The position numbers were made by a program, and so were the translations under genes. Under the pieces are notes generated by a model, which had not been told where the DNA came from, did not search any database, and worked only from the letters and a program-made list of their open reading frames with translations. DNA of 64,000 bases from the NCBI GenBank assembly GCA_944386635.1, contig CALXBV010000029.1, positions 8,896 through 72,895 on the forward strand. Reading direction: 5' to 3'. The stretch comes from an uncultured Clostridia bacterium. Lineage in GTDB: Bacteria > Bacillota > Clostridia > TANB77 > CAG-465. Of the stretch, positions 1 through 19,775 are shown one piece after another (the first letter of the stretch is position 1; the number at the start of each line of letters is the position of its first letter).

Positions 1-1632
1 GAGGGATTTATGTCTAGCTCACATTGTAACTATTGTGATGGCGCAAGATTAAAGAAGGAGTCCCTTGCTGTAACAATAGGAAGACTTAATATATACGAGT
101 TATGTTGCAAAAATATCGTATATATAAAAGATTATATAAATAAAGAATATGAAAAGATGGGTAAAAAAGATAAAACAATTGCAGAGCAAATTGTAAAAGA
201 ACTAAATTCTAGACTACAATTTTTGATTGATGTAGGACTTAGTTATCTTACACTATCTAGAAGTGCTGGTACCTTATCTGGGGGAGAATCACAAAGAATA
301 AGACTTGCAACTCAAATTGGATCAGGACTTACAGGAGTATTATATATATTAGATGAGCCAAGTATTGGATTGCATCAAAAAGATAACGAAAAACTATTAA
401 GTTCTTTAAAGAAAATGAGAGATTTAGGGAATACATTAATAGTTGTAGAGCATGATGAAGATACTATGAGACAATCGGATTTTATTGTAGATATAGGACC
501 TGGTGCTGGTGTTCATGGTGGAAATGTTGTATTTGCTGGAAAACCTGAAGATATATTGAATTGTGAAGAATCTATTACTGGAAAATATTTAAGCGGTAAA
601 TTAAAAATTCCTGTTCCTAAGACAAGAAGAAAAACAAAAATAGGATACTTGGAGATAAAAGGTGCAAGGGAACATAATTTAAAAAATATAAATGTTAAAA
701 TTCCTGTAGGAGTATTTAACTGTGTAACTGGTGTATCTGGCTCTGGTAAATCTACACTTGTTAACGAGATATTATATAAAACAATGGCACGTGATTTGAA
801 CAGAGCATATGAGAGACCTGGTAAATATGATAAAATAAAGGGGTTAAATTATTTTGACAAAGTAATAAATATAGATCAATCTCCAATTGGAAGAACGCCT
901 CGCTCTAATCCTGCAACTTACACTGGAATGTTTGATGCAATAAGAGAAATATTTGCAAATACTAATGAAGCAAAGCTTAGAGGATATTCTAAAGGTAGAT
1001 TCAGTTTTAATATTCCAGGAGGTAGGTGTGAAGCCTGTTCTGGTGATGGTATAATTAAAATTGAAATGAATTTTTTACCAGATGTATATGTTCCATGTGA
1101 AGTATGTAAAGGAAAAAGGTATTCAAGAGAAACATTGGAAGTAAAATATAAAGGAAAAAGTATAAGTGATGTATTAGATATGACAGTAGAAGAAGGATTG
1201 GAATTTTTTAAAAATATTCCTACTATTAAAAATAAGCTACAAACATTAATGGATGTAGGACTTGGATATATAAAAATAGGACAATCTTCTACAACACTTT
1301 CTGGTGGTGAAGCTCAAAGAATTAAACTTGCAACAGAGCTATCTAAAAGATCAACTGGTAAAACAATGTACATATTAGATGAGCCAACAACTGGACTTCA
1401 TATGGCTGATGTGCATAAATTAATAAATATATTGCAAAGACTTGTTGATGGTGGCAATACTTTAGTAGTGATTGAGCATAATTTAGATGTAATAAAAAGT
1501 GCAGATAATATAATAGACTTAGGGCCAGAAGGCGGAGATGAAGGTGGACAGATAGTAGCAACAGGTACACCAGAGCAAGTAGCTAAGGTAAATGAAAGTT
1601 ATACTGGAGAGTTCTTAAGAAAAATATTATAA
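1..1632 (+). CDS. uvrA: Excinuclease ABC subunit A, C-terminal ~540 aa (5' end lies outside the window)
   Basis: Frame open from nt 1. Shows UvrA ATPase module signatures [12 protein letters not shown] and [12 protein letters not shown], Walker [10 protein letters not shown], Cys pairs CEACSGDG and CEVCKG, and the typical UvrA C-terminus [19 protein letters not shown]. Confidence 0.93.
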
Positions 1633-6654: not shown

Positions 6655-6661
6655 AAAAGTG

Positions 6662-7297
6662 ATGTTGGTGAATAAAATGAAAAAGTTATATAATTTATTT
6701 TATATTTTTATAATAACAAGTATTTGTGGATATATTATTGAATTTATTTGGACTTTGCTTACAAAGGGTGTATTCATTAATCATTCAGCAGTAGTAATTG
6801 GACCATTTAATTTTGCTTATGGTATTTGTGGAGTTGCTCTTACATTGTTATTGTATAAATTTAAAGATGAATCTTATTTAAAGATATTTTTATTTAGTTT
6901 TATTGGCGGTTCTATTTTAGAATATATTATGAGTTGGGGAATGGAGTTAGTTTTAGGCTTTACAGCATGGGATTATTCTAATAGATTTTTAAATATTAAC
7001 GGACGTATTTGTTTGTTATATTCTATATTTTGGGGAATTTTAGGAATTTTATGGATTAAAATTATATATCCACAATTTGAGAAAAATATTAATAAGATTA
7101 ATCAAAAAACATCTAAAATTGTTGCAATTTGTTTAAGTATATTTTTAGTCTTTGACATTCTTTTAACTATTAGTGCTGTAAATAGAGCTCGTGCTGCAGA
7201 TAGAGGTGTTCCGCCAAATAACCGATATGAAGTATTTTTAGATGCTAAATTTAATAGTAAATATTTAAAAAATATGTTTAACAATAATTGGAAGTGA
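6662..7297 (+). CDS. Polytopic integral membrane protein (true start could be ATG 6677)
   Basis: Five to six hydrophobic segments; no catalytic motif recognised. Confidence 0.5.
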   Translation: MLVNKMKKLYNLFYIFIITSICGYIIEFIWTLLTKGVFINHSAVVIGPFNFAYGICGVALTLLLYKFKDESYLKIFLFSFIGGSILEYIMSWGMELVLGFTAWDYSNRFLNINGRICLLYSIFWGILGILWIKIIYPQFEKNINKINQKTSKIVAICLSIFLVFDILLTISAVNRARAADRGVPPNNRYEVFLDAKFNSKYLKNMFNNNWK

Positions 7298-7487
7298 TAT
7301 ATAGATATACTAGTAGTATTTTTCATTAAAATAAAAAATGAAAAATTATATTTAGAATCGTATTAAATTCTGCTAAAGTGTTAATAATGAATACTAATAG
7401 TAAATTTTGTGATAAAAATTTTAATATATGAGGATTAAAAAAATTCATATTAAAATTTTTTTATAAATATAAAAAGGAGGTAAGAAT

Positions 7488-8036
7488 ATGTTTAGAGATA
7501 TTGTAAAAAAATACGAAAAAGGTTCAATTGTTATTTCAATATTAATGTTAATTCTTTCTATTTTCTTAATTTTTATGCCATTTAGTTCTGCTGTATCTGT
7601 GATTTGGATGTTTGGAATATTTACTATAGTAGATGGTATAATTCATATTGTATCTTATTTTAAGACAGAGATAGATAATAGACTTGCAAATTTTGAATTT
7701 GCAGAAGGTATTATGGAAATATTAGCAGGCTTTTTAATATTCATTAGTGCTGAATATTTAGTATTATTTATGCCTATAATGATAGGAGCTTGGATTATTA
7801 TAAAAAGTATTACTAAAATGCAAATAGCATTAAATATGAGAAGTATTGAAAAAAGTAATTGGATTTTGGTATTAGTTTTATCTATTATTACATTATTAAT
7901 TGGTGTATTTATTGTCTTAAATCCATTGCCAGGATTTTTAGCAATAACAATTACAACAGTTGGAATATTACTTGCAACATATGAAATTATAAATCTTATA
8001 GAAGCAATTTATGTTTTGTATAAATTGAAAGATTAA
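7488..8036 (+). CDS. HdeD/DUF308-like membrane protein
   Basis: Strong RBS AAGGAGGT. About 180 aa with repeated DUF308-like TM hairpins. Confidence 0.5.
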   Translation: MFRDIVKKYEKGSIVISILMLILSIFLIFMPFSSAVSVIWMFGIFTIVDGIIHIVSYFKTEIDNRLANFEFAEGIMEILAGFLIFISAEYLVLFMPIMIGAWIIIKSITKMQIALNMRSIEKSNWILVLVLSIITLLIGVFIVLNPLPGFLAITITTVGILLATYEIINLIEAIYVLYKLKD

Positions 8037-8091
8037 TATTATTGAATAAGATTTTAAAAAATAGATGTGTTTTAGAAATTGAAATATTTAT

Positions 8092-8128
8092 GAGAGTAGT
8101 TATATTGATAATTACTCTCAATTTTTTA
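8092..8128 (+). terminator. Intrinsic terminator after the DUF308 gene
   Basis: Stem GAGAGTAGTTAT / ATAATTACTCTC followed by AATTTTTT. Confidence 0.6.
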
Positions 8129-8421
8129 TATATAAAAAATAATAATTTATATGCAAGAACATTATTGGACTAGTGTTTTTTTATAAAATAGTAGTATATT
8201 TCTTAATACTATGTATACAATTTTTGCGTACTTGATTTATTTTATATATGAAGTATAATAATTATATGCAAATAGAAGAAAATATGTTTTATGTTTATAA
8301 CATTATGGCTAGTTTTTTCTTGAAAATATATAGCATAAAATTTTGATTTAATAAATTAAAGTATTTTGCGTTATAGAATTAGAAAAACTTATAAAAAAAT
8401 TAGAAATAGGCAGGGATAATA

Positions 8422-9744
8422 ATGAAAAATTTTAATTTATTTGAAGATAGCAATGATATGAAACAGGCTCCTCTTGCAAGTAGAATGAGACCATTAACAT
8501 TAGATGAAATTATTGGACAACAACATATTATTGGAAAAGACAAACTACTTTATAGAGCGATAAAAGCGGATAGATTAGGGTCTATTATATTATATGGACC
8601 ACCTGGAACAGGAAAGACTACTATTGCAAAGGTGATCTCAAATACAACAGATTCTTATTTTTGTAAATTAAATGCTACCAATGCTGGAATTAAAGATGTA
8701 GAAAAAGTTATAGAAGATGCTAAATTTAATTATGGAGCTTATAAAAAGAAAACCATATTATTTATAGATGAGATACATAGATTTAATAAAAATCAACAAG
8801 ATTATTTACTACCATTTGTTGAAGATGGAATTGTTACTTTGATTGGCGCAACTACCGAAAATCCATATTTTGAAGTAAATAATGCTTTACTTTCAAGATG
8901 TAGAATATTCGAATTAAAGCCTTTGGATAAAGATGATTTGATAAAGGTGATAGATAGGGCATTATCAGATAAGAAAAAAGGATTAGGAGCGGTAAACATA
9001 GCAATTGATAAAGAGGCAAAAGAGTTTTTAGCAGATACAGCAAATGGAGATGCTAGAAGCGTTTTAAATGCTTTAGAATTAGCATACCTTACAACAGCCC
9101 CTGAAAAAGATGGAAGTTTGCATATTACACTTCCTGTTGCAGAGGAGTGTATCCAAAAAAAAGTTATAAGATATGATGTTAATGGAGATAATCACTATGA
9201 TGCTATTTCGGCATTTATAGAATCAATGAAACATACTGAACCGGATGCGACTTTATATTATCTTGCTAGGATGCTAGTTGCTGGAGAAGATATAAAATAT
9301 ATTGCTAGGAGAATATGTGTATGTGCCTCAGAAGATGTAGGACTTGCAAATTCAAAAGCATTAGAGGTCGCAACTACTGCTATGCTTGCAGCTGAAAGAG
9401 TAGGAATGCCAGAAGCTGCGAAAATATTGGCACATGCAGCTTTATATGTATGTTGCTCTCCAAAATCTGATACTGTATATGGAATTTTAGATGCGATGAA
9501 AGAAAAAAAAAAAACAGGAAATATTCCGATTCCTTTATTTTTACAAGATTCTAGTTACAAAAATGCTTATAAGTTAGGTAGAGGAATAGGGCTAGATAAT
9601 ATACATGCATTTCCAAATCACTACTCTGGAAAGAACTGTATGCCTAAGGAATTAGAAAATAAGAGATATTTTAAATTATCAGGAACAGGAAATGAAAAGA
9701 AAATACAAGAATTCTTAGACTATTTAAGAAAAAATTTAAAATAA
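8422..9744 (+). CDS. rarA: Replication-associated recombination protein A (RarA/MgsA), AAA+ ATPase, paralogue 1
   Basis: ASRMRPLTLDEIIGQQHI, Walker A GPPGTGKTT, Walker B LFIDEIHRFNK, sensor GATTENP, and the C-terminal MgsA helical/tetramerisation region. Confidence 0.9.
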   Translation: MKNFNLFEDSNDMKQAPLASRMRPLTLDEIIGQQHIIGKDKLLYRAIKADRLGSIILYGPPGTGKTTIAKVISNTTDSYFCKLNATNAGIKDVEKVIEDAKFNYGAYKKKTILFIDEIHRFNKNQQDYLLPFVEDGIVTLIGATTENPYFEVNNALLSRCRIFELKPLDKDDLIKVIDRALSDKKKGLGAVNIAIDKEAKEFLADTANGDARSVLNALELAYLTTAPEKDGSLHITLPVAEECIQKKVIRYDVNGDNHYDAISAFIESMKHTEPDATLYYLARMLVAGEDIKYIARRICVCASEDVGLANSKALEVATTAMLAAERVGMPEAAKILAHAALYVCCSPKSDTVYGILDAMKEKKKTGNIPIPLFLQDSSYKNAYKLGRGIGLDNIHAFPNHYSGKNCMPKELENKRYFKLSGTGNEKKIQEFLDYLRKNLK

Positions 9745-9802
9745 ATAGAAACCAAAAGATATTATATAAAAGAATAATAGCAAAGTAGAAGGGAAGTTAA
9801 AA

Positions 9803-10692
9803 ATGGAAATAAAAAATAATAATAACTATAAAATAATAGTTAGAGGAGCTAAAGTACATAATTTAAAAAATATTGATATAGATATTCCTCTTGGAAAATT
9901 AGTAGCAATTGCAGGAGTATCTGGATCTGGTAAGTCTTCTTTAGCTTTAGGTACGTTATATGCAGAGGGTTTAAGAAGATATTTAGAAGCTTTATCTACA
10001 TATACAAGAAGAAGAATTACTCAGTCTGCAAGAGCAGATGTTGATATAATTAAGCATGTTCCGGCGGCTTTAGCACTTCATCAAAGGCCAGGAATTCCTA
10101 ATATAAGAAGTACTTTTAGTATTGTATATGAATTTTTAAATAGTTTAAGATTTCCAATTACTTGCCCAGATTGCGGAGGAACACGATATAATGTGTCAAC
10201 AGAAAAAATTATGTACCAAGTAGTTAATAATCAAAACTATTCAATAAAGTATATTAAGAGATTAACTATTAATGAGGCAGTTGATTTTTTTTAAAATGTG
10301 CCTAAAATAAGTTAGAAGTTTTAATTAATTTAGGATTAGGATATTTAACTTTAGGCGAAGATACACCAGCTTTGTCTGGAGGTGAAGCTCAAAGATTAAA
10401 ATTAGCATCAGAAATGGAAAAAATTCAAAATGATGCTGTATTTGTATTTGATGAGCCATCTATTGGTTTACATCCATTAGATGTTCAAGTTTTATTAAAA
10501 GTGTTTGATAATTTAGTATCTAAAGGAGCTACAGTAATTGTTATTGAACATGATTTGGATGTTATAAAAAATTCCGACTATTTAATTGATATGGGACCAG
10601 GTGGTGGAATTTTAGGAGGAAAGATAGTTGCAACTGGAACAAGAGAAGATATTAAAAACAATAAAAATAGTATTACTGGAAAATATTTATAA
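9803..10692 (+). pseudogene. Degraded UvrA-like mini-gene: N-terminal Walker A + zinc finger fragment (9803-10294) and signature/Walker B/H-loop fragment (10306-10692) in different frames
   Basis: Fragment a: [30 protein letters not shown] ... CPDCGG. Fragment b: [29 protein letters not shown] ... [12 protein letters not shown] ... IEHDLDVIK ... SITGKYL. Frame a ends at TAA just after a T8 run (10285-10292). Frame b opens only after a TAA at 10303, so a simple slip cannot join them. The full UvrB-binding/insertion domains and all of ATPase module II are absent. Confidence 0.65.
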
Positions 10693-10706
10693 AAGGAGGA
10701 AAATTA

Positions 10707-12035
10707 ATGCATCAAGTATCTATATTTGAAAGCTCTACAAATGAGCCTTTAGCATCAAGAATGAGACCAACAAAATTAAGTGAGTTTGTTGGTCAAACTC
10801 ATTTGATAGGTAAAAACAAAATATTAAGAAAAATAATTGAAAGTGATAATATCCCTTCAATGATATTTTGGGGACCTCCAGGAGTTGGAAAAACAACATT
10901 AGCTCGTATTATTGCTAATGAGACGAAATCTGAATTTATTACTTTCTCAGCGGTGACTTCTGGAATTAAAGAAATAAAAAAGGTGATGGAAGAAGCAGAA
11001 AACAATAAAAGAATGGGAGTAAGGACTATTGTATTTGTAGATGAGATTCATCGCTTTAATAAAGCCCAACAAGATGCTTTTTTACCATTTGTTGAAAAGG
11101 GATCTATTGTTTTAATAGGAGCTACAACCGAAAATCCATCTTTTGAAATTAATAATGCGTTACTTTCTAGATGCAGAGTATTTGTTTTAAAGGAATTATC
11201 TAGTGAAGATATTTTAGTATTATTAAAAAGAGCTATTCATGATGAAAGAGGCTTTGGTAAAGAGAAGGTGGATATATCTGAAGAAGATTTGAATATAATA
11301 GCTAATTTTGCAAATGGTGATGCTAGATCAGCCCTTACAACTTTAGATATGATAATTACTAATTCAGATATAAGTGAAGATGGTATCATAAAAGTAACTA
11401 AAGATGCGATTGAGGAATGTTTAACTAAAAAGACATTACTATATGATAAAAATGGAGAAGAGCATTATAATATAATTTCTGCTCTTCATAAATCAATGAG
11501 AAATAGTGATCCAGATGCAGCGGTTTATTGGCTAGCTAGAATGCTAGAAGCTGGAGAAGATCCAATTTATATTGCAAGAAGAATTACAAGATTTGCTTCT
11601 GAAGATATAGGGCTTGCCGATACAAATGCTTTAAATGTCGCAATTAATGTATATCATGCTTGTCATTTTATTGGAATGCCAGAGTGTAATGTTCATCTGG
11701 CAGAGGCAGTAATTTATATGTCTTTAGCACCAAAATCTAATGCCTGTGATGTTGCGTATAGACTTGCTAGTTCTGATGCTAAAAAAATGCTTGCCGAACC
11801 TGTACCATTGGTTATTAGAAATGCTCCTACTAAATTAATGAAAGAGCTTAATTATGGAAAGGGATACCAATTTGCTCATGATAGTAAAGACAAACTAACA
11901 ACTATGGAATGTCTACCACCATCTTTAATTGGAAAAACTTATTATAATCCAGGAACGCAAGGTAACGAAGTTCGTTTTAAACAACGACTAGAGCAAATAA
12001 AAGAATGGAAAAAATCACATAAACAAAGCAATTAG
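10707..12035 (+). CDS. rarA: RarA/MgsA AAA+ ATPase, paralogue 2
   Basis: Strong RBS AAAGGAGGAAAA. ASRMRPTKLSEFVGQTHL, GPPGVGKTT, VFVDEIHRFNK; clear paralogue of the 8422 gene. Confidence 0.88.
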   Translation: MHQVSIFESSTNEPLASRMRPTKLSEFVGQTHLIGKNKILRKIIESDNIPSMIFWGPPGVGKTTLARIIANETKSEFITFSAVTSGIKEIKKVMEEAENNKRMGVRTIVFVDEIHRFNKAQQDAFLPFVEKGSIVLIGATTENPSFEINNALLSRCRVFVLKELSSEDILVLLKRAIHDERGFGKEKVDISEEDLNIIANFANGDARSALTTLDMIITNSDISEDGIIKVTKDAIEECLTKKTLLYDKNGEEHYNIISALHKSMRNSDPDAAVYWLARMLEAGEDPIYIARRITRFASEDIGLADTNALNVAINVYHACHFIGMPECNVHLAEAVIYMSLAPKSNACDVAYRLASSDAKKMLAEPVPLVIRNAPTKLMKELNYGKGYQFAHDSKDKLTTMECLPPSLIGKTYYNPGTQGNEVRFKQRLEQIKEWKKSHKQSN

Positions 12036-12121
12036 AGATAAAAATATTAAGTAATTATAAAGATTAATATTAAATTGTTAATTAAAATATAAAAATTATC
12101 ATATAAAGCATTTAAAGAAAA

Positions 12122-12394
12122 ATGAAAATGAAATATAGAATCAAAGTTACAGTAATTGATAAAAAAATTATATCAAGAATTGCAAAAAATGTTGTGTTGT
12201 TCCAGAAGCAGGAGCTTGTCATTGTTATAAATGTAGGAGATTAATTTATTATTTAAAGATATGGTGACAAGGATGATGATTTTTGGCATATGGGACTAAA
12301 TGCATTAGTAAAAACAAATATAAATCCAGATACTGTTGCAGGAGAACTAAAAATGACATATTACTCAGAGGCTTGGAATGTAATAGCAAGATAA
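12122..12394 (+). pseudogene. Small conserved-family ORF (~90 codons, KVTVI...GDEFIIxR...DDFWHMG...EAWNVI) interrupted by two in-frame TAA codons
   Basis: A single frame reads MKMKYRIKVTVIDKK...INVGD*FII*RYGDKDDDFWHMGLNALVKTNINPDTVAGELKMTYYSEAWNVIAR*. Stops at 12242-12244 and 12254-12256 sit where Glu (GAA) is expected. Resembles a small clostridial protein family recalled from memory but not verified. Confidence 0.4.
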
Positions 12395-12695
12395 TATTGT
12401 ATGAAAATAAATCAAGTTTATATTCATATTTGCATATGTAATACTTTATTTATAGTTTATAAATTTGATTGATAATTAAACATTCTTATGGTACTATTAA
12501 AGAGTAATGGTATGTATTGGATAAAAAGTTAGTAAAAATTTTATTAAGCGTATTTATAATTATTGTTGTAAGAGAGGTCAATATTGAAATTAATTGGGAT
12601 AATGATTATGTAGAAATAATTCTAAGCAGAATATAGCAAAAGACTATATTTATAATTTAAGATTATATATAGTAGATTTTTAGGGGGAATAAAAG

Positions 12696-13013
12696 ATGAG
12701 TAATGCTAAGAACAAATATAATGTAATAACTTTATGTGGATCAATTAAATTCAAAAATGAATTCATGATAGTTCAAGAAAAACTTACATTAGAAGGAAAT
12801 ATAGTGCTTACACCAAATTTTTTTAATAATATAAAGCATGAAATGAGTTTAGAAACTAAAAAAATGTTAGGTGAAATGCATAGACAAAAAATAGATATGT
12901 CAGATGAAATTTATGTAATTAATTTTGGAGGATACATTGGAGAAAGTACAAAATCTGAAATCGAATACGCAAAGGAGAATGGTAAAAAAATTTCTTATTT
13001 AGAAAATATTTAA
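12696..13013 (+). CDS. Hypothetical 105-aa protein, possibly nucleoside 2-deoxyribosyltransferase-like fold (DUF4406-like)
   Basis: Strong RBS GGGGGAATAAAAG. The VITLCGS...IYVIN...GESTKSEIEYAKENGKKI pattern resembles the Rcl/DUF4406 family; this is a weak call. Confidence 0.35.
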   Translation: MSNAKNKYNVITLCGSIKFKNEFMIVQEKLTLEGNIVLTPNFFNNIKHEMSLETKKMLGEMHRQKIDMSDEIYVINFGGYIGESTKSEIEYAKENGKKISYLENI

Positions 13014-13226
13014 TAAAAAGTAATTTGTTAAGTAGTAAGTTAAGGTAGAAAAAATGATTTTGTATATAAAATGGCTCAAAGATATGGTAGAGATAGGTGT
13101 TGAGACTTTATTAGAAGAAAAGATCGTATATTTGTTGTTACAACAATGAGATCAAAAAAATAGAAAATAATGTTTTTTTATAATTTTAAAAATATTGGAA
13201 AATATTAATTTGAAAGTGAGTTTGTT

Positions 13227-13880
13227 ATGAAAAAGAAAATAGTAGTAATTATAGTTATTAGTTTATTAATTTTAGTTATCTTAATTATCTATTTACTATA
13301 TTTGTTAAATTATATACCACATAAAATGTATAGTAATGAATATTTTAATATTAAAACTTATACAAGTAATACAGATAAAGATAATGATGGTATTGATGAT
13401 CAAACGGATATTTTAACTAGTGTTCGAGAGTATATAGCAACAAATCCAAAATATAAAAGTAAGTATTATGCAGGCGGTTATCCAAATGATGAGTATGGCG
13501 TTTGTACTGACGTAGTTGCTTTTGGCTTGAAAGGTGCTGGATATGACTTAATGGAACTAGTAAATGATGATATTAAAAATAATAAAAATAATTATAATAT
13601 AGATATTATAGATAAAAATATTGATTTTAGAAGAGTACAAAATTTAAAAATATATTTTGAAAATAATGCTATTTCTCTTACAACTGACATTTATGATATT
13701 GAAAATTGGCAGGGAGGAGATATAGTAATTTTTCAAAATCATATTGGAATAATATCTGATAATAGAAATAAAAATGGTGTTGCTTTTGTTATTCATCATG
13801 CTAATCCATATCAAAAATATTATGAAGAAGATATTTTAGAGCTAAGAAATGATATTGTTGGACATTATAGAATAAGTTAG
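13227..13880 (+). CDS. DUF1287 domain protein with N-terminal signal anchor
   Basis: N-terminal TM (KKKIVVIIVISLLILVILIIYLL) followed by conserved DUF1287 motifs (GVCTDVVAFGLKGAGYDL ... GGDIVIF...HIGIISD...VIHH). Confidence 0.6.
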   Translation: MKKKIVVIIVISLLILVILIIYLLYLLNYIPHKMYSNEYFNIKTYTSNTDKDNDGIDDQTDILTSVREYIATNPKYKSKYYAGGYPNDEYGVCTDVVAFGLKGAGYDLMELVNDDIKNNKNNYNIDIIDKNIDFRRVQNLKIYFENNAISLTTDIYDIENWQGGDIVIFQNHIGIISDNRNKNGVAFVIHHANPYQKYYEEDILELRNDIVGHYRIS

Positions 13881-13910
13881 ATAAATATTGAATTTTTAAG
13901 GAGTGATGGT

Positions 13911-14534
13911 ATGAAAATTTTAATTTTAAATGGTAGTCCTAATATTAAAGGGTGTACAGCAAGAGCTTTAAAAGAGGTAGCAGATACTTTAAAAAATGAG
14001 GGGATAGAAACTGAAACTATTGATGTTGGTAATAAAGATATAAGAGGCTGTATATCTTGCAATTCTTGTACTAAAAAAGGTAAATGTGTATTTGATGATT
14101 TAGTAAATGAAATAGCACCTAAATTTGAAAAGGCAGATGGAATTATAGTTGGAACACCTGTATATTATGCGGGATCTAATGGAACAATAATTTCATTACT
14201 AGATAGATTATTTTATAGTACACATTTTGATAAAACAATGAAAGTTGGTGCAGCAGTTATATCTTCAAGAAGAGCTGGAAGTACATCAGCATTTGATGAA
14301 ATAAATAAATATTTTACAATAAGTAATATGCCAATAGTATCAAGTTCATATTGGAATGAAGTACATGGATTTGTAGCAGATGATGTTGAAAAAGATTTGG
14401 AAGGTTTGCAAACAATGAGAAATTTAGGAAGAAATATGGCTTTTATGATAAAGGCAATAAATCTTGGAAAAGAAAAATATGGACTTCCAAAAAATGAAAG
14501 AGGAATGTTTACTAGTTTTAATGATGGATTATAA
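13911..14534 (+). CDS. Iron-sulfur flavoprotein (Isf-like), NADPH-dependent FMN reductase fold with compact CX2CX2CX5C motif
   Basis: MKILILNGSPN... flavodoxin-like start and CISCNSCTKKGKC near residue 47. Confidence 0.7.
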   Translation: MKILILNGSPNIKGCTARALKEVADTLKNEGIETETIDVGNKDIRGCISCNSCTKKGKCVFDDLVNEIAPKFEKADGIIVGTPVYYAGSNGTIISLLDRLFYSTHFDKTMKVGAAVISSRRAGSTSAFDEINKYFTISNMPIVSSSYWNEVHGFVADDVEKDLEGLQTMRNLGRNMAFMIKAINLGKEKYGLPKNERGMFTSFNDGL

Positions 14535-15379: not shown

Positions 15380-15991
15380 ATGACAAAAAATATACTTGAT
15401 AAAAGAAAAGAAGAAATAATTAATGTATGTGAAAAACTTTATGAAAATAATAGTTTTAAAGATATAACAATAAAAAGTATAGGCGAAGAAACAACATTTT
15501 CTCGTACTTCAATATATAATTATTTTCAAACTAAAGAAGAAATTTTTCTTGCACTTTTAAAGAGAGAATATGAAAGATGGATAGATGATTTAAATGAAAT
15601 ATACGAGAAAAATTTCAATATTACAAAAGAAGAATTTGCAGATAAACTAGCAAATACAGTTTCTAAAAGAAAAAATTTATTAAAATTGCTTTCGATGAAT
15701 ATGTATGATATGGAAGAAAATAGCAGGATGGAAGAGTTAATTGAATTTAAAAAGTCGTATGGAAATGCAATAAAAATGGTAAGAAAATGTGTAGACAAGT
15801 TCTTTGGTGATATGAATGATGATAAAAAAGATGAATTTGTATTTTTATTTTTTCCATTAATGTATGGAATATATCCTTATGCAGAAGTAACACAAAAACA
15901 AAAAGAAGCTATGGAGGTTGCAGATGTACCATTTAAGTATTTATCTATATACGAAATTACATATAAAGGAATTTTAAAATTGTTAAATTAG
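15380..15991 (+). CDS. TetR/AcrR family transcriptional regulator
   Basis: N-terminal HTH region FKDITIKSIGEETTFSRTSIYNYFQTKEEIF. Confidence 0.8.
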   Translation: MTKNILDKRKEEIINVCEKLYENNSFKDITIKSIGEETTFSRTSIYNYFQTKEEIFLALLKREYERWIDDLNEIYEKNFNITKEEFADKLANTVSKRKNLLKLLSMNMYDMEENSRMEELIEFKKSYGNAIKMVRKCVDKFFGDMNDDKKDEFVFLFFPLMYGIYPYAEVTQKQKEAMEVADVPFKYLSIYEITYKGILKLLN

Positions 15992-16008
15992 AAATAAGAG
16001 GTGATTTT

Positions 16009-16542
16009 ATGAAAATAGTAATATTAACAGGAAGTTATAATTTACATGGAACATCAAATACATTAGTTGATGAGTTTATAAGAGGAGCGAAGGAAAATGA
16101 TAATGAGATTGTAAGATTTGATACAGCTCATTTAGATATACATCCTTGTATAGGTTGTAACCATTGTGGAATGGATGGAGATTGTGTATTTAAAGATGAT
16201 ATGGAAAAAATATTAGATGAGATAGAAGATGCAGATATGTTAGCATTTGCAACTCCTGTTTATTATTTTGCAATGACAGCTCCACTTAAAGCTGCAATAG
16301 ATAGATTTTATTCAAGAACTGTAAGAATAAGCAGCAAAAGACTAAAAACAGCATTTATTTTAACTTGTTGGAATACAGATAATTCCACAGTAGAGCCTTT
16401 GATAGTACATTATAAAAAGTTGGTAAGTTATATGCATTACAAAGATGAAGGGATGATCGTAGGAAAAGGTTGTGGAACAGTAGGTATGATGCCATCTCAT
16501 TTTTATAAAGAAGCCTATGAACTAGGAAAAAAGATTAAATAA
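16009..16542 (+). CDS. Iron-sulfur flavoprotein (Isf-like) paralogue
   Basis: MKIVILTGS... start and CIGCNHCGMDGDC (CX2CX2CX5C). Confidence 0.7.
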   Translation: MKIVILTGSYNLHGTSNTLVDEFIRGAKENDNEIVRFDTAHLDIHPCIGCNHCGMDGDCVFKDDMEKILDEIEDADMLAFATPVYYFAMTAPLKAAIDRFYSRTVRISSKRLKTAFILTCWNTDNSTVEPLIVHYKKLVSYMHYKDEGMIVGKGCGTVGMMPSHFYKEAYELGKKIK

Positions 16543-16624
16543 TTATAAGTGGGAATAAAATTAAAATAATTTATCTAATTATTAAGTAATGATTGATTAT
16601 AAAAAGTAGTAAAGGAGTATTTTT

Positions 16625-17293
16625 ATGAGCAAAGGATTTAGAATAGTACTAGATGTTAGCATGACCTGTTTTTTTATAATACTAATGGGATATTATGCAA
16701 CAGAAAATGAGGTACATGAAATATTAGGAACAATCACATTTATATTATTTATTATTCATAATATTTTAAATATAAAGTGGTATAAATCAATATTTAAAGG
16801 AAAGCATAATTTTCAAAGAACATTTCACATTTGTATTAATTTACTTTTGTTTGTTGCAATGCTGGGAATGATGGTAAGTGGAATTATGATCTCATCTGAT
16901 GTATTTGCGTTTTTAGATATTCCTACAACTATGTTTGGAAGAAGATTGCATATGTTATCAACATCATGGGGATTTGTTTTAATGGCAATTCATGTTGGAC
17001 TTCATATAACTGCATTAATGAATAAATTAAATGCAAAGATGAAAAATAGCACATTTGAATATATATATTACTTCATATTAATTCTTTTAGCGGGAATAGG
17101 AATATATTCGTTTGTAAATTTAAAAGTATGGGAAGATATGTTTTTAGTAAATGATTTTAAGTTTTTTGATTATGAACAGAGTCCAGTATTATTTTACTTG
17201 AAATATCTATCTGTATTAATTGTAATAGCGCTTGTTATTTATATTATTTTTTCTTTGGTAAGAAAAGTAAAAAATAAAAATATTAAAAATTAA
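16625..17293 (+). CDS. His-rich polytopic membrane protein (DUF4405-like; possible cytochrome-b-like redox partner)
   Basis: About five TM helices with conserved-looking intramembrane His residues (IIHNIL, FHICIN, LHMLSTSWG, AIHVGLH). Confidence 0.4.
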   Translation: MSKGFRIVLDVSMTCFFIILMGYYATENEVHEILGTITFILFIIHNILNIKWYKSIFKGKHNFQRTFHICINLLLFVAMLGMMVSGIMISSDVFAFLDIPTTMFGRRLHMLSTSWGFVLMAIHVGLHITALMNKLNAKMKNSTFEYIYYFILILLAGIGIYSFVNLKVWEDMFLVNDFKFFDYEQSPVLFYLKYLSVLIVIALVIYIIFSLVRKVKNKNIKN

Positions 17294-17306
17294 GGAGGTA
17301 AAGGTT

Positions 17307-18056
17307 ATGAATATTAGTAAAAAAGCAATGGAAAACTATCAAAAGTTATTTCCAGAAAAAAATCTAAATTATAATAATGATAAAGAATTAATTGAGATTG
17401 TATTAAATTTTAGCTTAGATGAGGCACAAGAATACGACCATTTAGATGACAAAACAAGACAAATTGTAATATTAGCTGCATCAATTGCAGTACAAACACC
17501 TAAAAGATATGAGACCTTTGTAGAAGCAGCATTAAATGTCGGAGTTACTCCAGTAGAGATTAAAGAAATACTATATCAAGCAATTCCTTATGTAGGAGTT
17601 TTAAAAGTATTAGATTTACTTGAGCCAACAAATAAAATATTTGAGAAAAGAGGAATTACTTTACCATTAGAAAAGCAAGGAACTACAACTAGAGAAAATC
17701 GTATGGAAAAAGGATTAGAAGTCCAAAAATCAATATTTGGGGATGTAATAGATAAAAATTATGAAAATTCGCCAAAAAATCAAGTACATATCCAAAGATT
17801 TTTATCAGATAACTGTTTTGGAGATTATTATACAAGAAACGGATTAGATGTTAAAACAAGAGAATTAGTTACATTTTCAATATTAATTTCACAAGGAGGC
17901 TGTGAACCACAAGTAAAAGGACATATAGCAGGAAATGTGAATGTCGGAAATGATAAGCAAACATTATTAAATACAGTAACAGCACTTCTTCCTTATATAG
18001 GATATCCAAGAAGTTTAAATGCTATTAGTTGTATTAATGAAGTAATACCAGATTAG
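17307..18056 (+). CDS. Carboxymuconolactone decarboxylase (CMD/AhpD-like) family protein, two CMD repeats
   Basis: Two AhpD-like helical repeats; the C-terminal repeat has a Cys in its CxxH-like region (GGCEPQVKGHI). Confidence 0.65.
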   Translation: MNISKKAMENYQKLFPEKNLNYNNDKELIEIVLNFSLDEAQEYDHLDDKTRQIVILAASIAVQTPKRYETFVEAALNVGVTPVEIKEILYQAIPYVGVLKVLDLLEPTNKIFEKRGITLPLEKQGTTTRENRMEKGLEVQKSIFGDVIDKNYENSPKNQVHIQRFLSDNCFGDYYTRNGLDVKTRELVTFSILISQGGCEPQVKGHIAGNVNVGNDKQTLLNTVTALLPYIGYPRSLNAISCINEVIPD

Positions 18057-18102
18057 ATAGTAATAAAATTAAAAATGTTAATAGAAAAGAGGAGGAATAT
18101 TT

Positions 18103-18528
18103 ATGAACGAGAAAGAATTTGAAAAAGTAAATGTATTTGGAAAGGGAAATTCAAATGATGCTTATGCGCAATATTTTATAGGAAAAAGTTATTTAAATCC
18201 ATTAGTGGACAATAACAGCTCATTATTTTTAGCAAATGTAACATTTGAACCAGGGTGTAGAAATAATTGGCATATTCATCATTCAATTAAAAATGGAGGA
18301 CAAATATTGATTTGTACTGCAGGATACGGTTGGTATCAAGAGGAAGGAAAAGAAGCAATAAGTTTAGAGCCAGGAAAAGTTATTGTAATTCCTGCAAATG
18401 TAAAACATTGGCATGGCGCAAAAAAAGATTCTTGGTTTTCTCATATTGCTATTGAGGTACCAGGAGAAGATACTTCAAATGAATGGTGTGAGCCAGTTTC
18501 AGACGAACAATATAATAAGTTAGGATAG
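18103..18528 (+). CDS. Cupin domain protein
   Basis: Cupin motifs G(x)5HxH (NWHIHHS) and PANVKHWHG; about 80% identical to the C-terminal half of the 37165 gene. Confidence 0.75.
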   Translation: MNEKEFEKVNVFGKGNSNDAYAQYFIGKSYLNPLVDNNSSLFLANVTFEPGCRNNWHIHHSIKNGGQILICTAGYGWYQEEGKEAISLEPGKVIVIPANVKHWHGAKKDSWFSHIAIEVPGEDTSNEWCEPVSDEQYNKLG

Positions 18529-18534
18529 GAGGAA

Positions 18535-19083
18535 ATGAAAATGCAAAAAAATATAGGCTCAAAATTAGCATTATACCCTATGCCATTATTAGTAATAGGA
18601 GCAATGGTAGATGGAAAAGTAAATTGGCTTTTAGCAGGGCATAGTGGAATTATAGGACATGATAGAGTAATGGTAAGCTTAGTAAAAGCACATTATACAA
18701 ATAAAGGAATTAGAGATACAAAAACATTATCTATTAATATAGTAAGTGAAGAAATGTTAAAAAAAGCAGATTATGTAGGTAGTGTAAGTGGAAGGAAGCA
18801 AGATAAATCAGATGTTTTTGAATATCATATAGGTGAAGCAGGAGCACCAATAATAAATAACGCACCAGTAGTTATGGAATGTAAAGTAGAAGATAATTAT
18901 GAAACAGATAATTTTGATAACTTTATAATGACAATTGCAAACACTTATGTTCAAGAAGAAAATTTGGATACAAATGGAAAAATAGATTATACGAAATTTA
19001 GTCCTGTATTGTTCGAATTTCCTAATTATACATATTTAAGAACAGGTGATACTATTGGAAAATGTTTAAAATTAGATAAATAG
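18535..19083 (+). CDS. Flavin reductase-like domain protein (FMN-binding split barrel)
   Basis: LALYPMPLLVIGAMVDGKVNWL... typical flavin reductase family N-terminus; same frame as the cupin, separated by TAG plus 2 codons. Confidence 0.65.
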   Translation: MKMQKNIGSKLALYPMPLLVIGAMVDGKVNWLLAGHSGIIGHDRVMVSLVKAHYTNKGIRDTKTLSINIVSEEMLKKADYVGSVSGRKQDKSDVFEYHIGEAGAPIINNAPVVMECKVEDNYETDNFDNFIMTIANTYVQEENLDTNGKIDYTKFSPVLFEFPNYTYLRTGDTIGKCLKLDK

Positions 19084-19104
19084 TAAAAGAAAGGGAGGTA
19101 GAAC

Positions 19105-19764
19105 ATGAATAAAAAAGTAATAATATTAATATTTTTAGTAATTATAGTTGCAATTTTAGGAATAATAGTAGGTGTTGGTTTGTTTGGAGATAATGAAAAT
19201 GTAGTAGAGGAGCCACCGCAAGAAGAATATGTTGAGCAAGTAGAAGATGATCAAACTGAAACACAAGAACAACAAAATAGTACAGAAAATGAAAATATAT
19301 TAATAGTATATTTCTCACATACAGGAAATACAGAAATGGTTGCAAATTTTATACATGAAGCAGTAGGAGGAGATATAGTTAAGTTAGAGACTCAAGAGCC
19401 ATATACGAATAATTATAATGATTTATTAGATATAGCACAAGAAGAAAGGAATGAGAATGCAAGACCAGCTTTAAGTACACAAATAGATAATATAGATGAA
19501 TATGATACTATATTCTTAGGATATCCTATTTGGTGGTCAGATATGCCAATGGCAATATACACATTTTTAGATGAATATGATTTATCTGGAAAAACAATAG
19601 CTCCATTTACTACAAGTGGAGGATCAGGATTATCAGGTACACCAAATAATATAGCTCAAGAAGAGCCAAATGCAACTGTAACAGAAGGATTGTCAATAAG
19701 AGATAATAATGTAGAAAATTCACAAAGTCAAGTAAATGAGTGGCTATCTCAAATAAGATTTTAG
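19105..19764 (+). CDS. Membrane-anchored flavodoxin (N-terminal TM + acidic low-complexity linker + flavodoxin domain)
   Basis: TM ILIFLVIIVAILGIIVGVGLF, acidic linker EEPPQEEYVEQVEDDQTETQEQQ, then flavodoxin motifs ILIVYFSHTGNTE and GYPIWWSDMP. Confidence 0.7.
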   Translation: MNKKVIILIFLVIIVAILGIIVGVGLFGDNENVVEEPPQEEYVEQVEDDQTETQEQQNSTENENILIVYFSHTGNTEMVANFIHEAVGGDIVKLETQEPYTNNYNDLLDIAQEERNENARPALSTQIDNIDEYDTIFLGYPIWWSDMPMAIYTFLDEYDLSGKTIAPFTTSGGSGLSGTPNNIAQEEPNATVTEGLSIRDNNVENSQSQVNEWLSQIRF

Positions 19765-19775
19765 GGAGAAAATAA

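What the first reader, a model, noticed from the sequence alone, without database searches (positions are those of the whole stretch)
8422..12035. Tandem rarA paralogues flanking a UvrA-derived mini-gene remnant
Two full-length RarA/MgsA AAA+ genes (440 and 442 aa, clearly paralogous but diverged) bracket an about 890-bp UvrA-like element, all co-directional with 15-60 bp spacers. A true uvrA lies at the start of the window. Duplication of rarA is unusual, and pairing it with a UvrA-family ATPase fragment is not a known operon or defence arrangement. It may be a decaying or specialised DNA-damage-tolerance or anti-foreign-DNA module, or the product of a segmental duplication that originally contained rarA plus a uvrA-like gene.
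Basis: partly seen in the sequence, partly recalled or inferred. Interest (0 to 1): 0.62.

Follow-up and report, generated by a model that had tools for sequence, protein, structure and literature searches.

The report
Two RarA genes flanking dead uvrA paralogue
An uncultured low-GC gut bacterium carries two old, intact copies of the replication-rescue gene rarA on either side of the wreck of an accessory uvrA-like repair gene; this is ordinary gene decay, but intact rarA + uvrA-like (+ HxlR regulator) cassettes occur in other gut Firmicutes and are exchanged between them.

Summary
RarA1 (8422-9744) and RarA2 (10707-12035) are both complete RarA/MgsA AAA+ genes. An 890-bp UvrA-like element (9803-10692) lies between them.

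- The two RarA genes are 44% identical. Each has its own 85-93% orthologues in related species, and both are under strong purifying selection (dN/dS about 0.06). They are ancient subfamily paralogues, not a recent or segmental duplication.
- The middle element is a pseudogene of a class-II-like UvrA paralogue, a type that lacks the UvrB-binding domain. In Ca. Alloscybalousia this gene is intact (819 aa) and sits directly after the RarA1 orthologue.
- In the window, about 530 codons were deleted in frame, then a TAA stop and a frameshift were added. The same lesions occur in two independent metagenome assemblies.
- It is not a copy of the host uvrA (44% identity). I found no LexA box, no specific defence signature, no flanking mobile-element repeats and no Rfam RNA family.

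One result goes beyond the window. A RarA1-type gene lies next to this UvrA paralogue in 8 of 80 species genomes. A three-gene HxlR-UvrA2-RarA block is shared at 80-90% nucleotide identity between Dialister and Lachnospiraceae. However, none of 80 UvrA2 loci from metagenomes has a RarA neighbour, so the link is sporadic.

The parts
8232..8259 (+). Promoter-like site (TTGATT-16-TATAAT) upstream of RarA1, following a terminator-like hairpin at 8091-8120 after the DUF308 gene
   Evidence: This is a consensus match only, and the number of such sites in the region is not above shuffles. Its use as the promoter of the unit is inferred.
8422..9744 (+). RarA1: intact RarA/MgsA AAA+ ATPase of 440 aa, of the subfamily shared with Erysipelotrichales and Lachnospiraceae
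   Evidence: Pfam AAA, AAA_assoc_2 and MgsA_C. PDB 8G28 349 bits and 3PVS 333 bits. Orthologues of 85-91% in at least 12 species-level genomes. dN/dS 0.055-0.081. Walker A GPPGTGKTT, Walker B FIDEIHR, sensor-1 TTENP and SRC arginine read directly from the sequence.
9803..10294 (+). UvrA2 pseudogene, 5' part (frame 2). Codons 1-116 are the N-terminal Walker-A lobe of NBD-I. From codon ~119 the reading continues in the C-terminal Zn knuckle of NBD-II. It ends at a premature TAA.
   Evidence: Residues 10-116 are 77% identical to L033 UvrA2 residues 4-110.
10151..10159 (+). Junction of the in-frame internal deletion (codons F117-P118-I119). About 530 codons, equivalent to residues ~111-640 of the 819-aa orthologue, are missing. 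The lost parts are signature domain I, the insertion domain, the C-lobe of NBD-I, the Walker A of NBD-II and the first knuckle of the C-terminal zinc module.
   Evidence: Alignment of the remnant to L033 UvrA2 and to PDB UvrA chains. The position is good to within a few codons.
10292..10294 (+). Premature stop TAA, at a position where the L033 orthologue has K (FF-K/x-N/D...)
   Evidence: Identical in L015 and L016.
10304..10312 (+). Frameshift site. A loss of 3n+1 bases shifts the reading from frame 2 to frame 1.
   Evidence: Read from the sequence against the family pattern ...PKI-x-KLEVLINLGLGYLTLGE. Identical in L015 and L016.
10306..10692 (+). UvrA2 pseudogene, 3' part (frame 1): signature motif LSGGEAQR, Walker B FVFDEP, H-loop IEHD and the C-terminus ...SITGKYL
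   Evidence: 63% identical to L033 UvrA2 residues 644-818 and 44% to host UvrA. No start codon with a ribosome-binding site precedes the signature motif; the listed TTG at 10372 is the L of LSGGE.
10693..10706 (+). 14-bp spacer with a strong ribosome-binding site (AAAGGAGG) for RarA2. Similarity to the RarA2 upstream regions of relatives ends just 5' of it.
10707..12035 (+). RarA2: intact RarA/MgsA AAA+ ATPase of 442 aa, of the subfamily that groups with E. coli RarA and with copies on Firmicute megaplasmids
   Evidence: Pfam. 3PVS 421 bits against 8G28 299 bits. Orthologues of 86-93% in more than 100 clusters. 69.5% to a C. estertheticum plasmid copy and ~66% to E. raffinosus megaplasmid copies. 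dN/dS 0.058-0.059. NJ tree.
12125..12395 (+). Neighbouring second pseudogene: a multiply frameshifted small gene of the TIGR04076 family
   Evidence: Three-frame translations. The patched sequence hits TIGR04076 at E 2e-6 and 28 bits, below the cutoff of 33. The identification is weak.

Best explanation
The locus is a chromosomal stretch of an uncultured low-GC gut Bacillota species. Its relatives are labelled 'uncultured Clostridium/Clostridia', Ca. Alloscybalousia, Massilimicrobiota and Erysipelotrichaceae.

It holds two functional, anciently diverged RarA/MgsA paralogues and, between them, a dead gene. RarA1 belongs to the subfamily shared with Erysipelotrichales and Lachnospiraceae. RarA2 belongs to a second subfamily that groups with E. 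coli RarA and with copies on Firmicute megaplasmids. Both are expected to act as RarA does: AAA+ ATPases that work at stalled or damaged replication forks. That function is taken from established knowledge of the family and was not tested here.

The middle element is a pseudogene of a class-II-like UvrA paralogue (two ABC domains, no UvrB-binding domain). In a related species this paralogue is intact and lies immediately downstream of the RarA1 orthologue. The window copy was destroyed in steps:
1. An in-frame deletion of about 530 codons fused the Walker-A lobe of the first ABC domain to the signature/Walker-B lobe of the second. It also removed half of the C-terminal zinc module.
2. A nonsense codon and a frameshift followed.

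The remnant has no function. The adjacency of the two RarA genes results from loss and rearrangement in a variable interval that separates them by 8.3 kb in a relative.

Shown here: gene identities, the lesions, orthology and selection on the RarA genes.
Inferred: co-transcription of RarA1, the remnant and RarA2 from one promoter; the order of the destructive events; and the biochemical roles.
For: Gene identities:
- Both RarA genes are complete.
- They are 44% identical to each other and fall in two clades.
- Each has its own 85-93% orthologues.
- dN/dS is 0.055-0.081 for RarA1 and 0.058-0.059 for RarA2.

Linkage of the two paralogues:
- Both lie on one contig of a relative, co-directional and 8.3 kb apart, with eight unrelated genes between them (L102).
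- RarA1 is truncated to ~120 aa in L006 and L007.

The remnant:
- It equals the UvrA N-terminus plus the C-terminus.
- It is 77% (N part) and 63% (C part) identical to the intact 819-aa gene that follows RarA1 in L033.
- It is only 44% identical to the host UvrA.
- The L033 protein skips residues 144-265 of Geobacillus UvrA, which approximately span the UvrB-binding domain.
- The stop and frameshift are visible in the sequence and are identical in L015 and L016. L015 is a different strain.
- The remnant differs at 10 of 143 family-invariant positions, against 0-5 in 13 intact members.
- dN/dS of its N part against L033 is 0.24, against 0.044 for an intact pair.

Signals:
- No terminator-like site lies between the RarA1 stop and the RarA2 start, and RarA2 has a strong ribosome-binding site.
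Against: - The remnant still has every ATPase motif and is only mildly eroded. Inactivation is therefore recent, and I cannot exclude that fragments are made.
- Intact single-domain derivatives of the same paralogue exist elsewhere (302-503 aa). The in-frame-deleted form may have been functional for a time.
- The ancestral gene order is not settled. L033 has RarA1 then UvrA2. L031 has UvrA2 then RarA1 with a 13-bp spacer, which resembles the 14-bp spacer between the remnant and RarA2 here.
- The intergenic DNA is too diverged to align.
- Co-transcription rests only on the absence of a predicted terminator.
- Which RarA is the 'housekeeping' one is not resolved. E. coli RarA is 45% identical to RarA2 and 40% to RarA1.
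Confidence: 0.82

Rival explanations
1. The mini-UvrA is alive. Either it is read as one ~298-aa single-ABC-domain protein by recoding (stop read-through plus a frameshift), or it works as two subunits (a 163-aa Walker-A piece and a ~128-aa signature/Walker-B piece) that assemble into an ATPase acting with the two RarA proteins.
For: - All ATPase motifs are kept.
- The sequence is identical in three assemblies of at least two strains.
- Intact single-domain derivatives of the same paralogue family exist and look constrained: 0-7 changes at 143 invariant positions.
- PADLOC's mad3 shows that a UvrA-like single ABC domain can be a working protein.
Against: - Two separate lesions within 20 nt would both need recoding.
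- No start codon with a ribosome-binding site precedes the second piece.
- The deletion is out of register and removes the first knuckle of the C-terminal zinc module.
- There is an excess of changes at invariant positions, and dN/dS is raised in the N part.
- The three assemblies are ~99.9% identical over the locus, so their agreement says nothing about selection.
Confidence: 0.07
2. The locus is debris of a recent segmental duplication of a rarA + uvrA-like unit, as the first reader proposed as an alternative.
For: Two co-directional genes of one family bracket the element. A 168-nt stretch shared by the two genes is 79% identical at DNA level.
Against: - The two genes are 44% identical in protein.
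- They sit in two clades, each with its own orthologues in many species.
- The 168-nt stretch is the Walker-B to sensor-1 core, where protein conservation and AT-rich codon usage explain the similarity.
- The remnant is 44% identical to host UvrA.
- No flanking repeats were found.
Confidence: 0.02
3. The locus is, or was, an anti-phage or anti-foreign-DNA defence island built on a UvrA-like ATPase (MADS-like) with AAA+ partners.
For: The remnant and the L033 UvrA2 hit PADLOC mad3 (137 and 243 bits) and mad8. In a C. estertheticum plasmid the UvrA2-type gene lies beside genes for a DEAD/DEAH helicase, an ATP-binding protein and a TerB-N protein.
Against: - The canonical host UvrA hits mad3 better (311 bits), so the match is generic to UvrA.
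- The RarA genes give only weak P-loop hits.
- None of the six flanking ORFs tested hit PADLOC.
- Elsewhere the UvrA2 neighbours are HxlR regulators and detoxification-type genes.
Confidence: 0.03
4. The tight RarA1-(remnant)-RarA2 arrangement is itself selected. The two paralogues would be co-expressed as one operon because they cooperate, for example as mixed oligomers or in successive steps at forks. Loss of UvrA2 would have been part of streamlining that operon.
For: - Both genes are strongly constrained.
- They are co-directional with no predicted terminator between them.
- The paralogues are also linked within 8.3 kb in L102 and about 6 kb in L006 and L007.
- The remnant ends 14 bp before RarA2's start, and that spacer holds the ribosome-binding site.
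Against: - In most relatives the two genes are at separate loci, or separated by unrelated genes.
- The tandem state is seen only in this one species.
- There is no evidence on oligomer composition.
Confidence: 0.15

Closest known systems
RarA/MgsA (E. coli RarA, PDB 3PVS; yeast Mgs1 and human WRNIP1 family)
   Same: Both window genes have the full architecture: AAA+ module, lid and MgsA_C. They align over the whole length and keep the Walker A/B, sensor-1 and arginine-finger residues.
   Different: Two subfamily copies sit side by side in one genome. They are 40% and 45% identical to E. coli RarA. No biochemical data exist for either subfamily in this clade.
Class II UvrA proteins (D. radiodurans UvrA2, PDB 2VF7; Ecm16, PDB 7SH1; DrrC), which are UvrB-independent UvrA paralogues linked to resistance against DNA intercalators (PMC9328131, PMC10192343)
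   Same: The intact orthologue of the remnant (L033, 819 aa) has two ABC domains, zinc modules and the insertion domain, but lacks the UvrB-binding domain.
   Different: By sequence it is closer to class I Geobacillus UvrA (646 bits) than to DrUvrA2 (517) or Ecm16 (386), so it may be an independent loss of the domain. It is not in an antibiotic biosynthesis cluster. The window copy is a pseudogene with one composite ABC domain.
Canonical (class I) UvrA of nucleotide excision repair; the host copy lies at window 10-1632
   Same: The same fold and motifs, and the remnant's best family hits are the UvrA models.
   Different: The remnant scores 325-328 bits against cut-offs of 1147 and 730. It is 44% identical to the host copy and lacks about 640 residues.
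HxlR-UvrA2-RarA three-gene block of Dialister and Lachnospiraceae (L054, L073, L094, L089, L098). It was found here and does not appear in the literature I could search.
   Same: It has a RarA1-type gene next to the same UvrA paralogue family (RarA 59-61% identical to window RarA1; UvrA2 N part 75-80% and C part 54-57% identical to the remnant). L031 of the window's clade has all three genes.
   Different: In those genomes UvrA2 is intact and an HxlR regulator is present. The window has no HxlR gene, a dead UvrA2, and an extra RarA2.
MADS defence system component mad3 (PADLOC PDLC04135), a single-ABC-domain UvrA-like protein
   Same: A single UvrA-type ABC domain of ~370 aa, the format the in-frame deletion produced.
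   Different: The similarity is generic to UvrA NBD-II. None of the flanking ORFs tested hit PADLOC, and the window element is disrupted.

Membership tests
RarA/MgsA family (RarA1 and RarA2) | Three-part architecture: AAA+ ATPase module, AAA lid (PF16193) and MgsA C-terminal domain (PF12002) | tested here: met
   All three are above Pfam cut-offs in both proteins (MgsA_C 174 and 216 bits against a cut-off of 27).
RarA/MgsA family (RarA1 and RarA2) | Catalytic motifs intact: Walker A GPPGxGKT, Walker B DEIHR, sensor-1 TTENP, arginine finger in LLSR | tested here: met
   Read from the translations and the pairwise alignment. Both copies keep every motif.
RarA/MgsA family (RarA1 and RarA2) | Full-length similarity to a solved RarA | tested here: met
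   Against 3PVS: residues 5-436 (333 bits) for RarA1 and 7-433 (421 bits) for RarA2.
RarA/MgsA family (RarA1 and RarA2) | Homotetramer, DNA-end- or SSB-stimulated ATPase, role at stalled forks | not testable with these tools
   Biochemical and genetic properties. They are assumed from family membership.
Class II UvrA (UvrB-binding-domain-less UvrA paralogue): intact orthologue L033 | Two UvrA-type ABC domains present and UvrB-binding domain absent | tested here: met
   Query 2-124 aligns to Geobacillus UvrA 21-143 and query 137-818 to 266-952, so about 120 residues approximately spanning the UvrB-binding domain are missing. The length is 819 aa against ~950.
Class II UvrA: window remnant 9803-10692 | Intact reading frame encoding two ABC domains and complete zinc modules | tested here: not met
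   There is one composite ABC domain, a TAA at 10292, a frameshift near 10310, and only one CxxC knuckle left.
Canonical UvrA (NF001503 / TIGR00630 equivalogs) | Score above the curated equivalog cut-off | tested here: not met
   The remnant scores 325 and 328 bits against cut-offs of 1147 and 730. The partial host ORF 10-1632 scores 960 and 914.
SOS (LexA/Cheo-box) regulon | GAAC-N4-GTTC operator upstream of the genes | tested here: not met
   There are 8 one-mismatch matches in 64 kb (8.35 expected), and none lies between 4897 and 13413.
Known anti-phage defence systems (PADLOC, including MADS) | Specific match of the components, better than housekeeping homologues, with partner genes nearby | tested here: not met
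   mad3 scores 137 bits for the remnant and 311 bits for host UvrA. The RarA genes give only weak P-loop hits, and none of the six flanking ORFs tested hits PADLOC.
Recent tandem or segmental duplication | Copies closer to each other than to homologues in other species | tested here: not met
   The copies are 44% identical to each other and 85-93% identical to their respective orthologues.

The most novel reading that the evidence does not exclude
RarA (RarA1 type), a UvrB-independent UvrA paralogue and an HxlR-type regulator form a small accessory cassette that is exchanged between gut Firmicutes. HxlR-family regulators sense electrophiles or aldehydes. The cassette would deal with replication-blocking DNA adducts: UvrA2 finds or dislodges the adduct, and RarA rescues the fork. 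The window would hold a decayed copy in which RarA1 was kept, UvrA2 was lost, and a second RarA subfamily gene now follows directly. If true, this gives the still poorly defined RarA and the orphan class II UvrA proteins a shared, testable context.
Probability: 0.3. Interest if true: 0.6.

Novelty: new member of a known kind. Interest (0 to 1): 0.36.

Why it matters
For this genome, the result turns a puzzling 'mini-uvrA between two rarA genes' into a clear annotation. There are two real RarA paralogues of different subfamilies and one pseudogene that should not be called as two small ABC proteins.

More widely, the comparison suggests two leads:
- RarA and a UvrB-independent UvrA paralogue, often with an HxlR regulator, are repeatedly neighbours. 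They move together between distant gut Firmicutes. This is a lead on what RarA and class II UvrA proteins do outside model organisms and antibiotic producers.
- This UvrA paralogue repeatedly collapses into single-ABC-domain forms by deletion between its two homologous halves. Some of these forms look conserved.

Neither lead is established. The adjacency is absent from 80 UvrA2 loci sampled from metagenomes.

Tried and rejected
- LexA/Cheo-box search: nothing near the locus and no excess in the window.
- Promoter and terminator scan: site counts are about as in shuffled sequence, useful only for showing no terminator between the RarA1 stop and the RarA2 start.
- PADLOC: the mad3/mad8 hits turned out to be generic to UvrA.
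- Rfam at E <= 0.1 on 7000-14000: no match.
- tRNA scan: none in the window.
- Repeat search for IS or att-like flanks around the RarA2/remnant block: only AT-rich chance repeats and the conserved RarA core.
- Exact look-up of the two window RarA proteins in public assemblies: not on record.
- Aligning the RarA1-remnant spacer with the RarA1-UvrA2 spacer of L033 to prove shared ancestry of the arrangement: too diverged.
- Aligning DNA upstream of RarA2 with relatives: similarity stops at the ribosome-binding site, so the direction of the rearrangement stays open.
- Cluster-member look-up to get organism names for the RarA2-type and RarA1-type clusters looked up: no names held.
- Literature searches for a RarA-UvrA2 link, RarA paralogues and PDB 8G28: nothing relevant.
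- Test of a general UvrA2-RarA association from the UvrA2 side in metagenomes: 0 of 80 loci. I therefore dropped the idea of an obligatory operon.
- Plasmid contexts of UvrA2 (Selenomonas, C. estertheticum): no adjacent RarA. In C. estertheticum a RarA2-type gene lies 7 kb away.

Full report
**1. What is in the sequence**

- RarA1 lies at 8422-9744 (+, 440 aa) and RarA2 at 10707-12035 (+, 442 aa).
- Two co-directional ORFs in different frames lie between them: 9803-10294 (163 aa) and 10372-10692 (106 aa). The second frame is open from 10306.
- The spacers are 58 bp and 14 bp.
- Both large proteins carry the full RarA/MgsA domain set above Pfam cut-offs. Both align over their whole length with E. 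coli RarA, PDB 3PVS. Both keep the Walker A, Walker B, sensor-1 and arginine-finger residues.
- They are 44% identical to each other.
- The ORF at 10-1632 is the C-terminal 540 residues of a canonical UvrA (NF001503, 960 bits).

**2. The middle element is a pseudogene with three lesions**

Joined across the frame change, the two small ORFs give 298 residues. These match UvrA residues 1-~110 and then the last ~180 residues.

Reading the DNA against relatives shows two small lesions:
- A TAA at 10292-10294, where the L033 orthologue has a lysine.
- A loss of 3n+1 bases at about 10304-10312, eleven to twenty bases further on. This moves the reading from frame 2 to frame 1.

The TTG listed as the start of the second ORF is the leucine of the LSGGEAQR signature motif. 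No ribosome-binding site precedes it.

The 962 bases between the two RarA genes are identical in two metagenome contigs from different samples, L015 and L016. L015 is a different strain: upstream of 7232 it is only about 85% identical to the window. The lesions are therefore real and shared within the species.

**3. Where the remnant comes from**

It is not a copy of the host uvrA. Its C-terminal 180 residues are 44% identical to the host protein.

A scan of one genome per species with RarA1, followed by tblastn of the flanks, found the counterpart. In Ca. Alloscybalousia intestinigallinarum (L033; Bacillota, Bacilli incertae sedis) the RarA1 orthologue (85% identity) is followed after 143 bp by an intact 819-aa UvrA paralogue.
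- The remnant's residues 10-116 are 77% identical to residues 4-110 of that protein.
- Its residues 118-298 are 63% identical to residues 644-818.
- The window copy has therefore lost about 530 codons in frame, with the junction at about 10151-10159.
- The deletion joins the Walker-A lobe of the first ABC domain to the signature/Walker-B lobe of the second. It removes the first knuckle of the C-terminal zinc module, so it is out of register with a normal ABC domain.

The L033 protein aligns to Geobacillus UvrA 21-143 and 266-952, with only 12 residues in between. It lacks the stretch that approximately spans the UvrB-binding domain, which is the defining trait of class II UvrA proteins (PMC9328131, PMC10192343). 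By score it is nearer to class I UvrA (646 bits) than to D. radiodurans UvrA2 (517) or Ecm16 (386).

**4. How decayed is it**

I compared the remnant with the 143 columns that it covers and that are invariant in 13 intact family members.
- The remnant differs at 10 columns. Intact members differ at 0-5 in leave-one-out tests.
- Against L033, dN/dS of the N part is 0.24. For an intact pair (L104 against L033) it is 0.044. The C part shows no difference (0.13 against 0.12).
- Synonymous sites are near saturation, so these ratios are rough.

The picture is of recent relaxation, not long decay. All ATPase motifs are still readable.

**5. The two RarA genes are old paralogues, both maintained**

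- RarA2 has more than 100 clusters of orthologues at 86-93% identity.
- RarA1 has orthologues at 85-91% in at least 12 species-level genomes, and at 76-81% in Massilimicrobiota, Erysipelatoclostridium and other Erysipelotrichaceae/Bacilli genomes.
- dN/dS against these orthologues is 0.055-0.081 for RarA1 and 0.058-0.059 for RarA2.
- A neighbour-joining tree puts RarA1 with the Erysipelotrichales and Lachnospiraceae copies. It puts RarA2 with a C. estertheticum plasmid copy (70%) and E. coli RarA (45%, against 40% for RarA1).
- phmmer gives the same asymmetry: 3PVS scores 421 against 333 bits, and 8G28 scores 299 against 349 bits.
- RarA2-type genes at 66-70% identity occur on megaplasmids of C. 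estertheticum and Enterococcus raffinosus and in a Subdoligranulum record. The best plasmid matches of RarA1 are only about 50%.

I read RarA1 as the lineage's vertically inherited copy and RarA2 as a long-resident second subfamily copy. This is an inference, and a labelled phylogeny is needed.

A recent or segmental duplication is excluded.

**6. History of the arrangement**

In most relatives the two genes are not adjacent.
- In L102 they lie on one contig, co-directional and 8.3 kb apart, with eight unrelated genes between them.
- In L006 and L007 the same block follows a RarA1 stump of about 120 residues.
- In L024, L026 and L028, RarA1 is followed after 1.7-3 kb by orthologues of window genes 15380-20366. 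There is no UvrA trace and no RarA2.

The interval downstream of RarA1 is thus a variable region. The tight tandem seen in the window is specific to this species (window, L015, L016).

Similarity to relatives upstream of RarA2 ends at its ribosome-binding site. The RarA1-remnant spacer cannot be aligned with that of L033. L031, also of this clade, has the order HxlR (divergent), UvrA2 (frameshifted in the MAG), then 13 bp, then RarA1. Whether the remnant was originally partnered with the gene before it or the gene after it stays open.

**7. Signals**

- A terminator-like hairpin follows the upstream DUF308 gene (8091-8120).
- A promoter-like site lies at 8232-8259.
- No terminator-like site lies between the RarA1 stop and the RarA2 start, so one transcription unit is plausible but unproven.
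- There is no LexA/Cheo box near the locus, no Rfam family, and no IS or att-like repeat.
- The PADLOC hit to MADS mad3 is generic, because the host UvrA scores higher.
- Directly after RarA2, 12125-12395 is a multiply frameshifted small gene that weakly matches TIGR04076. It is a second sign of gene loss here.

**8. The recurring RarA-UvrA2 neighbourhood**

Among the 80 RarA1-like loci, eight have this UvrA paralogue (819-881 aa as called, co-directional) next to RarA or one small gene away. The loci are L033, L031, L048, L054, L073, L094, L089 and L098.

In Porcincola, Oribacterium and Bilifractor (Lachnospiraceae) the order is UvrA2, HxlR-type regulator, RarA. In two Dialister genomes (Negativicutes) it is HxlR (divergent), RarA, UvrA2. 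Across these two groups:
- the RarA proteins are 93-97% identical;
- the UvrA2 proteins are 90-96% identical;
- the DNA is 80-90% identical;
- among the Lachnospiraceae the shared block is about 4.5 kb, with mostly unrelated flanks (L054 and L094 also share upstream DNA) and no integrase or transposase among the flanking ORFs scanned.

That level of identity between classes of Bacillota indicates horizontal transfer of the three genes as a unit.

The HxlR of L031 is 67-73% identical to those regulators. A more distant HxlR gene directly follows UvrA2 in at least 15 metagenome loci.

Against a general rule, none of the 80 closest UvrA2 loci from metagenomes has a RarA within the available flanks (up to 5 kb). 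Those loci form about 9 lineages at 80% identity, one of them with 59 members. The plasmid copies in Selenomonas and C. estertheticum also have no adjacent RarA.

My own rough estimate is that chance adjacency would occur at about 0.1-0.2% per genome, so the association is real. But it is sporadic, and the independent events are few (about five arrangements). I found no paper linking RarA with class II UvrA.

**9. Verdict**

The locus consists of two genuine RarA paralogues of different subfamilies and a recently inactivated, internally deleted class-II-like uvrA paralogue.

Its 'decaying damage-tolerance module' reading is partly supported. Its duplication and defence readings are not.

The window feature itself is ordinary. 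The wider RarA-UvrA2-HxlR cassette and the single-domain UvrA2 derivatives are leads worth a systematic survey.

Noticed in passing
window 12125-12395 (+): A small gene directly after RarA2 is broken by several frameshifts. The patched translation (MKYRIKVTVIDKK...CVVPEAGACHCYKVGDEF...SEAWNVIAR) weakly matches the TIGR04076 family (E 2e-6, 28 bits, cutoff 33). It is a second pseudogene at the locus.
   Followed up: partly
L054 6898-11374; L073 6903-11383; L094 6763-11452; L089 699-5400; L098 9407-14111: A three-gene block (UvrA paralogue without a UvrB-binding domain, HxlR-type regulator, RarA) is shared at 80-90% nucleotide and 90-97% protein identity between Lachnospiraceae genera and Dialister. 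The gene order differs between the two groups and the flanks are mostly unrelated. This looks like horizontal transfer of a cassette.
   Followed up: partly
P0003-P0050 (467-503 aa; contexts L002, L003-L005) and P0015, P0016, P0104, P0002, P0052 (302-365 aa; L001): The same UvrA paralogue family has many shorter, intact single-ABC-domain derivatives. In the 467-503-aa group (sequence read for P0003) the join is in register at the CxxCxGSR|Y zinc knuckle, and the insertion domain (PF17755) is kept. The 302-365-aa forms each have a different junction. They show 0-7 changes at 143 family-invariant positions. Some of the singletons could be metagenome assembly collapses.
   Followed up: partly
L112-L142 and L179 (for example L114 7482-7802): In at least 15 metagenome loci an HxlR-like gene (38-44% identical to the cassette regulator) starts at or just after the stop of UvrA2. 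HxlR may therefore be the more regular partner of this UvrA paralogue, more so than RarA.
   Followed up: no
L015 1-505, equal to window 6728-7231: Strain L015 is nearly identical to the window from 7232 onward (9 mismatches over 7232-11909). In the 500 bp before that it has 77 differences, inside gene 6659-7297. This is a sharp recombination boundary between strains.
   Followed up: no
L006 1383-1736; L007 1322-1579; L102 10001-20971: In relatives, the interval between RarA1 and RarA2 holds eight unrelated genes, including flavin reductase, a pyridine-nucleotide disulfide oxidoreductase with a rhodanese domain, and DUF4236. In two contigs RarA1 is cut down to a stump of about 120 aa next to the same block. 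The interval is a variable region.
   Followed up: partly
L031 7482-9987: The UvrA paralogue upstream of RarA1 in this MAG is split into 621-aa and 230-aa ORFs. It has 21 changes at 143 family-invariant positions. It is either a second independent decay of the gene in this clade or a MAG sequencing error in a divergent copy.
   Followed up: no
L050/L075, L056/L077, L058/L082, L060/L072, L049/L062, L090/L095: Six Butyrivibrio/Lachnospiraceae genomes each carry two RarA1-like genes on different contigs. In Butyrivibrio sp. MC2021, one copy groups with the cassette RarA. RarA duplication is thus not rare in gut Firmicutes.
   Followed up: no
L183 (C. estertheticum plasmid pCF002-344, 262020-276664): A RarA2-type gene (69.5%) and a UvrA2-type gene (58%) lie 7 kb apart on a 344-kb plasmid, separated by IS110 transposase fragments. 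The UvrA2-type gene is followed by genes for a DEAD/DEAH helicase, an ATP-binding protein and a TerB-N protein. RarA lies next to a 'radical SAM mobile pair protein B' gene and a winged-helix regulator gene.
   Followed up: no
window 8752-8919 and 11025-11192: The two RarA genes share a 168-nt stretch at 79% DNA identity (Walker B to sensor 1). This is explained by protein conservation plus AT-rich codon usage, and I saw no sign of gene conversion.
   Followed up: partly
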